Virus record (IMG/VR): IMGVR_UViG_2850784384_000005 | Direction: 5' to 3' (one strand) | Length of the DNA stretch: 17,981 nt | Source: a virus | Taxonomy: Duplodnaviria > Heunggongvirae > Uroviricota > Caudoviricetes | Translations under genes and position numbers: made by a program | Notes under the pieces: generated by a model | Seen by the model: only the letters and a program-made list of their open reading frames with translations | The model's database searches: none | What the model was told of the DNA's origin: nothing | Shown: one piece after another, positions 1,974-2,008 of the stretch | Position numbering within the stretch: the stretch's first letter is position 1 | Layout: each line of letters starts with the position of its first letter

Positions 1974-2008
1974 GTCACGGTGTGTCACTGGTTGTCACTC
2001 TCCGTCAC
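1974..2008. promoter_or_regulatory. Four direct GTCAC repeats at exact 10-bp phasing (1974, 1984, 1994, 2004); candidate protein-binding array near the island's left end
   Basis: Read directly: tttGTCACgg tgtGTCACtg gttGTCACtc tccGTCACga. Confidence 0.5.

What the first reader, a model, noticed from the sequence alone, without database searches (positions are those of the whole stretch)
1974..2008. Second phased array near the left terminus: GTCAC x4 at 10-bp spacing
Four GTCAC pentamers sit exactly 10 bp apart, next to the palindrome AAAATCacgtcGATTTT (1931-1947). The array lies in the roughly 800-bp non-coding stretch between phoQ and the last island gene, where the attachment junction is expected. 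It resembles integrase arm-type or directionality-factor binding sites, or terminase recognition repeats. The motif is distinct from the GAACAA array, implying a different binder.
Basis: seen in the sequence. Interest (0 to 1): 0.55.

Follow-up and report, generated by a model that had tools for sequence, protein, structure and literature searches.

The report
Orphan phased GTCAC repeats in satellite island
Four GTCAC repeats spaced one DNA turn apart are a real, optional protein-docking site inside an E. coli phage-satellite island, but they sit too far from the integration junction to be integrase sites and look most like phage replication-origin repeats whose binding protein the island lacks.

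Summary
GTCAC starts at 1974, 1984, 1994 and 2004, exactly 10 bp apart, and 0 of 200 shuffles reproduce this. The window is phoQ followed by a capsid-forming phage-inducible chromosomal island (cf-PICI).

The array is island DNA, not chromosome, but it lies 505 bp from the att core (AAATATGTCC, 1460-1469). A complete relative has no second copy at the integrase end. The same array occurs in PICIs with different att sites, replication genes and packaging modules. It is absent from about two thirds of related islands, including one with the same flanks. Integrase-arm, directionality-factor and terminase readings are therefore not supported.

In its simplest form, a hairpin-T5 plus 4-5 GTCAC decamers sits directly after the stop codon of the last island gene (orf93, phrog_1561, function unknown). 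The GTCAC positions never vary, whereas the spacers do.

The only positive comparison is with phage origins. GTCAC decamer arrays are common in viral contigs. At least 53 of 120 sampled lie inside replication-initiator genes, including those of E. coli lambdoid prophages. The island encodes no such initiator and has its own iteron origin beside its primase gene.

Best guess (about 0.3): an orphan iteron-like array for a phage initiator supplied in trans. The binder is unproven.

The parts
1974..2008 (+). Four GTCAC pentamers at exact 10-bp spacing. They read GTGAC on the strand that carries the island genes. Relatives with the compact arrangement have a fifth, stop-codon-proximal copy.
   Evidence: In the four core copies 0 of 20 motif positions vary among variants, against 5 of 15 spacer positions.
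1955..1973 (+). Hairpin ACGGTTAAACCGT followed by CTTTTT, terminator-like on the + strand. The stretch ACCGTCTTTTT travels with the array in all variants.
   Evidence: BLAST matches restricted to window 1963-2009 in other island types.
2009..2257 (-). Mosaic insert separating the array from orf93 in this island. It is made of repeated 'pseudo-3'-end of orf93 + short hairpin' units (for example 2038-2075 resembles 2224-2262). It is absent in L004, L005 and L006, where the array follows the stop codon directly.
2258..2539 (-). orf93, the last gene of the island: 93 aa, phrog_1561, function unknown, predicted three helices. Every island-type copy of the array that was retrieved lies downstream of a homologue of this gene.
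1850..1971 (+). Separate mosaic segment to the left of the array, containing the palindrome at 1932-1948. It occurs with or without the array in other islands, so it is not part of the array module.
1460..1469 (+). att core AAATATGTCC (left junction), overlapping the phoQ stop codon. It is the reference point for the 505-bp distance.
   Evidence: three-way alignment of an empty site, the window and the int-side junction of L001..
1538..1610 (+). ACTACACC x2 plus ACAACGTGGAACAA...ACAAGAAA repeats, 70-140 bp from the core. This is the likely real att-arm protein-binding block and is not part of the GTCAC module.

Best explanation
Shown: the array is a small, self-contained, optional DNA module of E. 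coli/Shigella phage-inducible chromosomal islands. The module is a hairpin-T5 followed by 4-5 GTCAC decamers in strict helical register. In its simplest form it lies between the stop codon of the last island gene (orf93) and the operon terminator.

Inferred: it acts at the DNA level as a docking array on which several copies of one sequence-specific protein bind on the same face of the helix. I put that general reading at about 0.7.

The specific mechanism I commit to (about 0.3) is that it is an orphan iteron-type array. It would be recognised by a replication initiator of the lambda-O-like / replisome-organiser class, whose own origins are GTCAC decamer arrays. That protein would be supplied in trans by a resident or infecting lambdoid phage, not by the island. 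Binding would either fire or boost island replication when such a phage replicates, or soak up the phage initiator once the island is amplified. Iteron titration of this kind inhibits lambda (PMC3349717). No binding has been shown, and the direction of the effect is open.
For: The phasing is non-random. Motif positions are invariant while spacers vary: 0/20 against 5/15 variable positions (hypergeometric p about 0.009, my arithmetic). One variant has lost exactly one 10-bp unit, which keeps the register. Homology breakpoints fall exactly at both ends of the module.

The array occurs in islands with different integrases and att sites, different replication genes and different packaging modules. 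It is missing from most relatives. Both facts fit an accessory site read by a factor from outside the island.

GTCACN5 x4 arrays gave at least 120 loci in IMG/VR (capped), against 36 and 45 for two letter-permuted controls. In 53 of the 120 the array lies inside an ORF that matches an initiator N-terminal-domain HMM, against 0/36 and 2/45 for the controls. These ORFs hit PHROG 'replication initiation protein' and 'O-like' families. E. coli phages and prophages carry such genes, with two GTCAC arrays, the second followed by an AT-rich run. The 16-mer GTCACGGCGTGTCACT is shared between the L002 island array and that E. coli prophage origin.

There is no RNA-structure signal on either strand (z between -0.35 and +1.25) and no Rfam hit. 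This favours a DNA-level role.
Against: No initiator of that class is encoded in the window (best E 0.39), and no remnant of one flanks the island arrays. The island already has a conventional iteron field next to its primase gene (10215-10500).

Only the 5-bp core and the phasing match. Two of the four units carry T at position 6 and T or C at position 9, which are 0-3% in initiator-gene iterons, although coding constraints shape that consensus. The AT-rich side lies on the opposite side of the motif orientation compared with phage origins.

HK106 and HK446, the experimentally known helpers of the prototype cf-PICI (bioRxiv 10.1101/2022.09.08.507074), were not among the phages with this initiator type. 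Sequence depth among island variants is shallow, so conservation of the motif is only modest evidence.
Confidence: 0.3

Rival explanations
1. The array is the binding site of an island-encoded protein shared by all these PICI lineages. The obvious candidates are the adjacent orf93 product or AlpA. It would act at the 3' end of the late operon, for example as a roadblock or terminator helper, as an autoregulatory site, or as activator sites for a leftward promoter.
For: Every island-type copy of the array that was retrieved lies downstream of an orf93 homologue, and in 8 of 19 array-positive IMG/VR loci it starts 6-16 bp after the orf93 stop. orf93 is confined to these islands: 965 close relatives, 37 clusters at 50% identity, and none in INPHARED phages. 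AlpA is present (PF05930). In the window a TAAAAT hexamer lies 23 nt beyond the last repeat on the - strand, and a 38-aa ORF follows.
Against: 31 of 54 orf93-bearing islands lack any phased array downstream, and 3 more have only a short unrelated TGTTC/GTTCG repeat. One island differs from array-positive ones essentially by the array alone. A dedicated binder would be expected to keep its site. orf93 has no recognisable DNA-binding fold: three helices, pLDDT 69, no Foldseek hit with E below 0.9. It has no Pfam or NCBIfam hit. There is no second GTCAC cluster near alpA/int or elsewhere in the window. The putative -10 element is not conserved in the L004-type context.
Confidence: 0.2
2. The array has no present function. 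It would be a short tandem repeat or leftover of past recombination, for example a captured piece of a phage origin, that hitch-hikes in a highly mosaic island end.
For: The array is optional. The island end is a patchwork of short repeated modules. Variants are closely related, so the invariant motifs could partly reflect recent common descent. An unrelated phage family shows a copy-number-variable GTCAC decamer repeat between the TerL and portal genes, which looks like a simple variable-number repeat.
Against: Within the array all substitutions fall in spacers and none in the 20 motif positions, and the register is always kept. The same 47-57-bp module is retained with sharp boundaries in at least four island lineages whose flanks differ. 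No initiator-gene remnant lies beside it.
Confidence: 0.2
3. First reader, option 1: the repeats are integrase arm-type sites or directionality-factor (Xis/AlpA-type) sites belonging to the attachment site.
For: Phased direct repeats on the integrase-distal arm are what Xis, Cox and Apl-type factors use (established knowledge). The array lies on the int-distal side of the island.
Against: It lies 505 bp from the core. A better candidate block (ACTACACC/GAACAA repeats) occupies 70-140 bp from the core and is mirrored at the int end. There is no GTCAC array at the int end of L001. The array is shared by islands with different att sites. It is absent in most relatives, which must still excise.
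Confidence: 0.07
4. First reader, option 2: the repeats are terminase small-subunit recognition repeats (cosB- or pac-like).
For: The array lies downstream of terS-terL-orf93 in cf-PICIs. One unrelated phage family has a GTCAC array right after its TerL gene.
Against: In HK97-like, HNH-dependent systems, and in Rpp-type PICIs, cos lies upstream of terS or rpp (PMC9026076; bioRxiv 10.1101/2022.09.08.507074). Here the HNH-terS gap is at about 4555-4745. No lambda-like cosN lies near the array. The same array occurs in islands with their own TerS/TerL, with a different TerS, or with no terminase gene at all. A cf-PICI with the same packaging genes lacks it.
Confidence: 0.05
5. A host DNA-binding protein reads the array. 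MatP is one candidate, since the matS half-site is GTGAC/GTCAC. An OmpR/PhoB-type response regulator is another, since these bind direct repeats one helical turn apart.
For: GTCAC equals the matS half-site, and TGTCA equals the Pho-box core (my own knowledge of the consensus sequences matS GTGACRNYGTCAC and Pho box CTGTCATAWAWCTGTCAY). A host factor would explain independence from the island gene sets.
Against: No inverted GTGAC-N3-GTCAC pair exists here, since all copies are direct at N5. Pho boxes have an 11-bp period with A/T-rich spacers, whereas here the period is 10 bp and the spacers are G/C-rich. The adjacency to phoQ is coincidental, because the array occurs at other chromosomal sites.
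Confidence: 0.05

Closest known systems
Origin iterons embedded in lambda-O-like / replisome-organiser initiator genes of temperate phages (PHROG 1408, 3729 and 345 class; for example E. coli phages Evi and Tritos, and Rac-type prophage replication genes)
   Same: The pentamer is identical (GTCAC, usually TGTCAC). There are 4-6 direct copies with a 10-bp (occasionally 11-bp) period. The array lies inside a transcribed region. A 16-nt stretch is identical to one E. coli prophage origin unit pair.
   Different: The island array is not inside an initiator gene, and no cognate initiator is encoded. The extended decamer consensus is only half matched. The AT-rich flank is on the other side of the motif. 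The motif reads antisense to the neighbouring gene.
The island's own pri-rep-ori arrangement (SaPI/PICI style; iterons 3' of the replication gene)
   Same: Both are clusters of short repeats in non-coding DNA of the same island.
   Different: The own origin lies at 10215-10500, uses CTGTCTACC/GGTAGAYA repeats in both orientations around an AT-rich core, and abuts the primase gene. The GTCAC array lies about 8 kb away and occurs with either replication-gene type.
Directionality-factor arrays (lambda Xis X1-X1.5-X2, P2 Cox boxes, 186 Apl sites)
   Same: Several direct repeats about one helical turn apart, on the integrase-distal arm.
   Different: Those sites lie within about 150 bp of the core and are required for excision. 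This array lies 505 bp away, is optional, and is shared across att specificities.
cosB R-sites of lambda-like phages and the proposed R3 of Rpp-type PICIs (PMC9026076, PMC6739421)
   Same: Short protein-recognition repeats in a satellite's non-coding DNA near packaging genes.
   Different: cosB sits about 50-65 bp from cosN and upstream of terS or rpp. No cosN is present here, and the array lies downstream of the last gene.

Membership tests
Integrase arm-type sites of a lambda/P4-like attP | The sites lie within roughly 50-250 bp of the crossover core. | tested here: not met
   The core is at 1460-1469 and the array starts at 1974, 505 bp away.
Integrase arm-type sites of a lambda/P4-like attP | Related copies occur on the other arm, and the sites track the integrase and att specificity. 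| tested here: not met
   There is one array only in the complete relative L001. The same array occurs at four or more different att sites. The ACTACACC/GAACAA block does satisfy this feature.
Directionality-factor (Xis/Cox/Apl/AlpA-type) site arrays | Three or more direct repeats at about a 10-11 bp period. | tested here: met
   Four copies at exactly 10 bp.
Directionality-factor (Xis/Cox/Apl/AlpA-type) site arrays | The array is placed between the core and the arm sites and is needed for excision, hence present in all excising relatives. | tested here: not met
   The array lies outside the arm block. 31 of 54 relatives have no phased array, and 3 more have only an unrelated TGTTC/GTTCG repeat.
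Terminase recognition site (cosB / pac) | The site is adjacent to the cleavage site and upstream of or within terS, and it co-varies with the TerS type. | tested here: not met
   The array lies downstream of terL-orf93, with no cosN-like sequence nearby. It is present in islands with three different packaging modules and absent from a cf-PICI with the same terminase.
Replication-origin iterons | Multiple direct repeats in helical register with conserved core positions. | tested here: met
Replication-origin iterons | A cognate initiator is encoded next to or around the repeats. | tested here: not met
   No window ORF matches the initiator N-terminal HMM, and no remnant flanks the array. Profile comparison of orf93 with that initiator domain gives probability 0.1%.
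Replication-origin iterons | An adjacent AT-rich unwinding region is present, and the repeats match the extended iteron consensus of a known initiator class. | tested here: inconclusive
   An AT-rich stretch of about 40 bp lies on the 5' side only, whereas phage origins have it 3'. The core matches, but units 2 and 3 deviate at positions 6 and 9.
Replication-origin iterons | The initiator binds the repeats and the site supports initiation. | not testable with these tools
   This needs EMSA or footprinting and a replication assay.
matS (MatP site) | A 13-bp palindrome GTGACRNYGTCAC. | tested here: not met
   Only direct GTCAC copies at N5 are present, with no inverted pair at N3.

The most novel reading that the evidence does not exclude
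Some E. coli phage satellites carry a portable 'orphan origin': a cassette of phage-type GTCAC iterons with no initiator gene. It would let the island either be replicated by, or titrate, the replication initiator of a particular class of lambdoid phages. That would be a satellite-phage interaction at the level of origin mimicry, independent of the island's own primase and origin and of AlpA-controlled induction.
Probability: 0.2. Interest if true: 0.7.

Novelty: new variant of a known kind. Interest (0 to 1): 0.42.

Why it matters
Phage-inducible islands are studied for how they sense and exploit helper phages. Known mechanisms act on induction (AlpA), capsid size and terminase specificity (Rpp, or the island's own capsids). 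A conserved but optional iteron-like cassette without an initiator would point to a further layer: exploiting or blocking phage replication proteins. It would also give a simple, testable 50-bp element.

If the array turns out to be inert or bound by an island protein, the practical result still stands. The att machinery of this island family lies at 1460-1610, not at the GTCAC array, and the array should not be used to define att or cos.

Tried and rejected
- **Chromosomal origin.** Rejected: empty sites match the window only to base 1469.
- **Structured RNA or sRNA.** No Rfam hit and no folding signal on either strand.
- **Coding sequence.** The + strand ORFs across the array (1902-2096 and 1972-2124; a RefSeq 'hypothetical' in L004) are not conserved, because the flanks differ between islands.
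- **Lambda-like cosN nearby.** Matches are at chance level only.
- **orf93 as a truncated initiator DNA-binding domain.** phmmer and BLASTP found nothing significant. hhalign gave probability 0.1%. The AlphaFold model is three helices at pLDDT 69, and Foldseek against the PDB found nothing below E 0.9. HMMER against 1.84 billion representatives found only a narrow family.
- **orf93 in phages.** No tblastn hit in INPHARED.
- **Wider taxonomic sampling.** The genome-contig scan returned only one Shigella locus. The metagenome scan anchored on the flank ACCGTCTTTT-GTCAC gave almost only chance hits, with one true island copy.
- **The island-type module in phages.** No BLASTN match.
- **Alternative phased arrays in array-less islands.** None found at that position.
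- **Second GTCAC cluster near alpA/int.** None found, even allowing 3 mismatches.
- **Literature on GTCAC/TGTCAC iterons.** Nothing relevant found.
- **'Gene 1792' of the cf-PICI paper.** I could not establish whether it is orf93.

Full report
**1. The observation**

GTCAC begins at 1974, 1984, 1994 and 2004 on the + strand. The four-copy, 10-bp-spaced pattern is unique in the window even with two mismatches allowed. It never appears in 200 dinucleotide-preserving shuffles. The pentamer alone is at its chance frequency, 30 found against 30 expected. The signal is therefore the phasing. Tandem Repeats Finder reports the same period-10 array. The adjoining palindrome is real but lies at 1932-1948. 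The gap between the phoQ stop (1461) and the last island gene (2258-2539, - strand) is 796 bp.

**2. Genomic setting**

- The window starts with phoQ (1-1461).
- The rest is a satellite island transcribed on the - strand. In order it carries orf93 (2258-2539), TerL (2553-4214), TerS (Terminase_4), an HNH endonuclease, connector, portal, protease and capsid genes, a P4-alpha-like primase (10503-12251), AlpA (16441-16629) and the 3' part of a tyrosine integrase (17004-17981).
- A close relative that is complete in RefSeq (L001, strain 2014C-3097) shows the same island between phoQ and roxA. Its annotation is that of a capsid-forming PICI, the family described in bioRxiv 10.1101/2022.09.08.507074.

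**3. Position of the attachment site**

- Of 5,426 complete E. coli genomes, 5,366 match the query, but nearly all only over the phoQ end. Identity stops at window base 1469.
- I aligned an empty site (strain S40, L208), the window's left junction and the integrase-side junction of L001. This gives the shared core AAATATGTCC at window 1460-1469, overlapping the phoQ stop codon.
- The block ACTACACC-ATTA-ACTACACC followed by ACAACGTGGAACAA...ACAAGAAA lies 70-140 bp from the core (1538-1610). It recurs next to the integrase gene in L001 (35475-35549) and in an island at a different att site (L002). This block behaves like the true arm-site region.
- The GTCAC array starts 505 bp from the core.
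- L001 contains exactly one GTCAC array and none at the integrase end.

**4. Distribution of the array**

BLAST of 1850-2050 against the E. coli genomes finds matches in 251 genomes. Homology breakpoints cluster at the two ends of the array. Some matches cover 1850-1971 only, and some cover 1963-2009 only, the latter at 96-98% identity. The array-only matches lie in other island types:

| Locus | Island type and site |
|---|---|
| L004 | cf-PICI inserted in yifB |
| L005 | Capsid + decoration + TerS island with a RepA-type helicase, next to a P2-like prophage |
| L006 | Protease-capsid-fusion island near narP |
| L002, L330 | Islands near clpS |

In L004 and L006 the array has five copies. In L004, L005 and L006 it starts a few bases after the stop codon of the orf93 homologue. 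In L004 a hairpin plus U8 terminator follows it on the gene strand.

In the window a 250-bp mosaic insert (2009-2257) separates the array from orf93. The insert is built from repeated 'pseudo-3'-end of orf93 plus hairpin' units.

I then sampled IMG/VR through orf93 rather than through the motif. Of 54 loci with at least 300 bp downstream:

- 19 carry the array (8 directly after the stop codon, 11 further away);
- 31 carry no phased array at all;
- 4 carry only short unrelated repeats: 3 with TGTTC/GTTCG and 1 with TCGTC at a 9-bp period.

L329 is a cf-PICI with the same left and right flanks but no array. The array is therefore a mobile, optional mini-module rather than a core part of the island.

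**5. Evidence for selection**

Among the distinct variants recovered through the flank AAAGACGG, none of the 20 motif positions of the four core copies varies. Five of the 15 internal spacer positions do. The chance that all five variable positions fall in spacers is C(15,5)/C(35,5), about 0.009. One variant has lost exactly one decamer, which preserves the register. The variants are closely related, so this is moderate evidence only.

**6. Readings that are excluded or weakened**

- It is not chromosomal DNA.
- It is not a structured RNA.
- It is not a conserved ORF.
- Integrase-arm or directionality-factor sites are weakened by distance, the single copy, sharing across att specificities and dispensability (sections 3 and 4).
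- Terminase recognition is weakened for three reasons. cos in these systems lies upstream of terS or rpp (PMC9026076; PMC6739421). No cosN-like sequence is near the array. The array occurs with three different packaging modules and is missing from a cf-PICI with the same terminase.
- It is not the island's own origin. A dense field of CTGTCTACC/GGTAGAYA repeats around an AT-rich stretch lies immediately 3' of the primase gene at 10215-10500. The GTCAC array also occurs with either primase-type or RepA-helicase-type replication genes.

**7. The one positive comparison**

Two letter-permuted controls gave 36 and 45 loci.

- In 90 of the 120 loci the array lies inside an ORF of at least 120 aa on the same strand.
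- In 53 of the 120 that ORF matches an HMM of an initiator N-terminal domain, against 0/36 and 2/45 for the controls.
- Representative ORFs hit PHROG 'replication initiation protein', 'O-like' and 'DnaD-like helicase loader' families. One carries a DnaT domain.
- The enterobacterial member (L008 type) has two arrays. One has six copies in the N-terminal coding part. The other has four copies followed by GATAAAGATACAGATAAAG, the classical lambda-O arrangement of an origin inside the initiator gene.
- Its N-terminal part is found in E. coli phages Evi, Tritos, vB_EcoS-640R1 and others, annotated as replication protein O or replisome organiser.

GTCAC decamer arrays are therefore a widespread phage iteron type.

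**8. Limits of that comparison**

- The island arrays share with this iteron type the core, the preceding T and the period. In one variant they also share a 16-nt stretch.
- Two of the four island units deviate at positions 6 and 9 of the decamer consensus.
- The AT-rich flank is on the other side of the motif.
- The island encodes no such initiator, and no gene remnant flanks the array.
- The known helpers HK106 and HK446 did not appear among phages with this initiator.

**9. orf93**

orf93 is 93 aa and belongs to phrog_1561. It has no Pfam or NCBIfam hit. It is restricted to E. coli/Shigella islands and absent from INPHARED phages. The predicted structure is three helices at pLDDT 69, with no structural neighbour. 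It shows no profile similarity to the initiator domain. Nothing ties it to DNA binding beyond adjacency, and most orf93-bearing islands lack the array.

**10. Verdict**

The array is real and is very probably a helically phased protein-binding site. It belongs to an optional, portable module at the 3' end of the late operon of several E. coli satellite lineages.

The explanation with the most positive support is an orphan iteron-like array read by a phage-type initiator supplied in trans. It would serve either to hitch-hike on that phage's replication or to titrate its initiator. This remains a minority bet at about 0.3. The rivals are:

- a site for a shared island protein (0.2);
- a functionless repeat (0.2);
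- att-related sites (0.07);
- terminase recognition (0.05);
- a host factor (0.05).

I found no description of this element in the searchable literature. As a kind of feature it is a variant of known phased-repeat binding arrays. Interest is moderate.

Noticed in passing
window 10215-10500: A dense field of CTGTCTACC / GGTAGAYA repeats in both orientations surrounds an AT-rich stretch, immediately 3' of the primase gene. This is probably the island's own replication origin.
   Followed up: partly
window 1538-1610; L001 35475-35549; L002 5498-5568; window 16900-16965: ACTACACC x2 followed by ACAACGTG-SAACAA-type repeats lie 70-140 bp from the att core. They are mirrored at the integrase-proximal end of a relative and occur in an island at another att site. 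A third related cluster sits between the integrase stop and alpA.
   Followed up: partly
window 1460-1469: The att core AAATATGTCC overlaps the phoQ stop codon. Integration regenerates the stop.
   Followed up: yes
window 2009-2262; IMG/VR loci L128-L207 downstream of orf93: Tandem units are each made of a copy of the last bases of orf93 (..GGTAAC..TGATATTYYCG..) plus a short hairpin. The hairpin stem sequence differs from unit to unit but stays self-complementary. The number and order of units vary between islands. Origin and function are unknown.
   Followed up: partly
window 1739-1855, - strand: A 38-codon ORF encodes a very hydrophobic peptide (MTTQTIEATIAIIVTVGAFPPLVEKVHIWIIITVIKGM) with an internal IIVTV/IIITV repeat, resembling a small membrane toxin. 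It has no family hit, and its start is not conserved in L003.
   Followed up: partly
window 1668-1713; also L006: A near-perfect 22-bp palindrome CGATATGGGGATCCCCATAACG is followed by ACCGGA-T8-CCGGT. The pair is conserved as a block in another island type, directly next to the array module there.
   Followed up: no
L124 3822-3856 (also L009, L020, L041, L043, L099, L103, L121): An unrelated phage family of unidentified host carries 4-8 copies of GTCAC(CGTTT/TGAAT) exactly between the TerL stop codon and the portal start codon. Copy number varies between contigs.
   Followed up: partly
L008 3043-3100 and 3334-3370: An E. coli-type prophage initiator gene carries two GTCAC arrays. One lies inside the coding region of its N-terminal DNA-binding domain. 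The other lies in the linker before an AT-rich run. The GTCAC iteron type appears not to be described in the searchable literature.
   Followed up: partly
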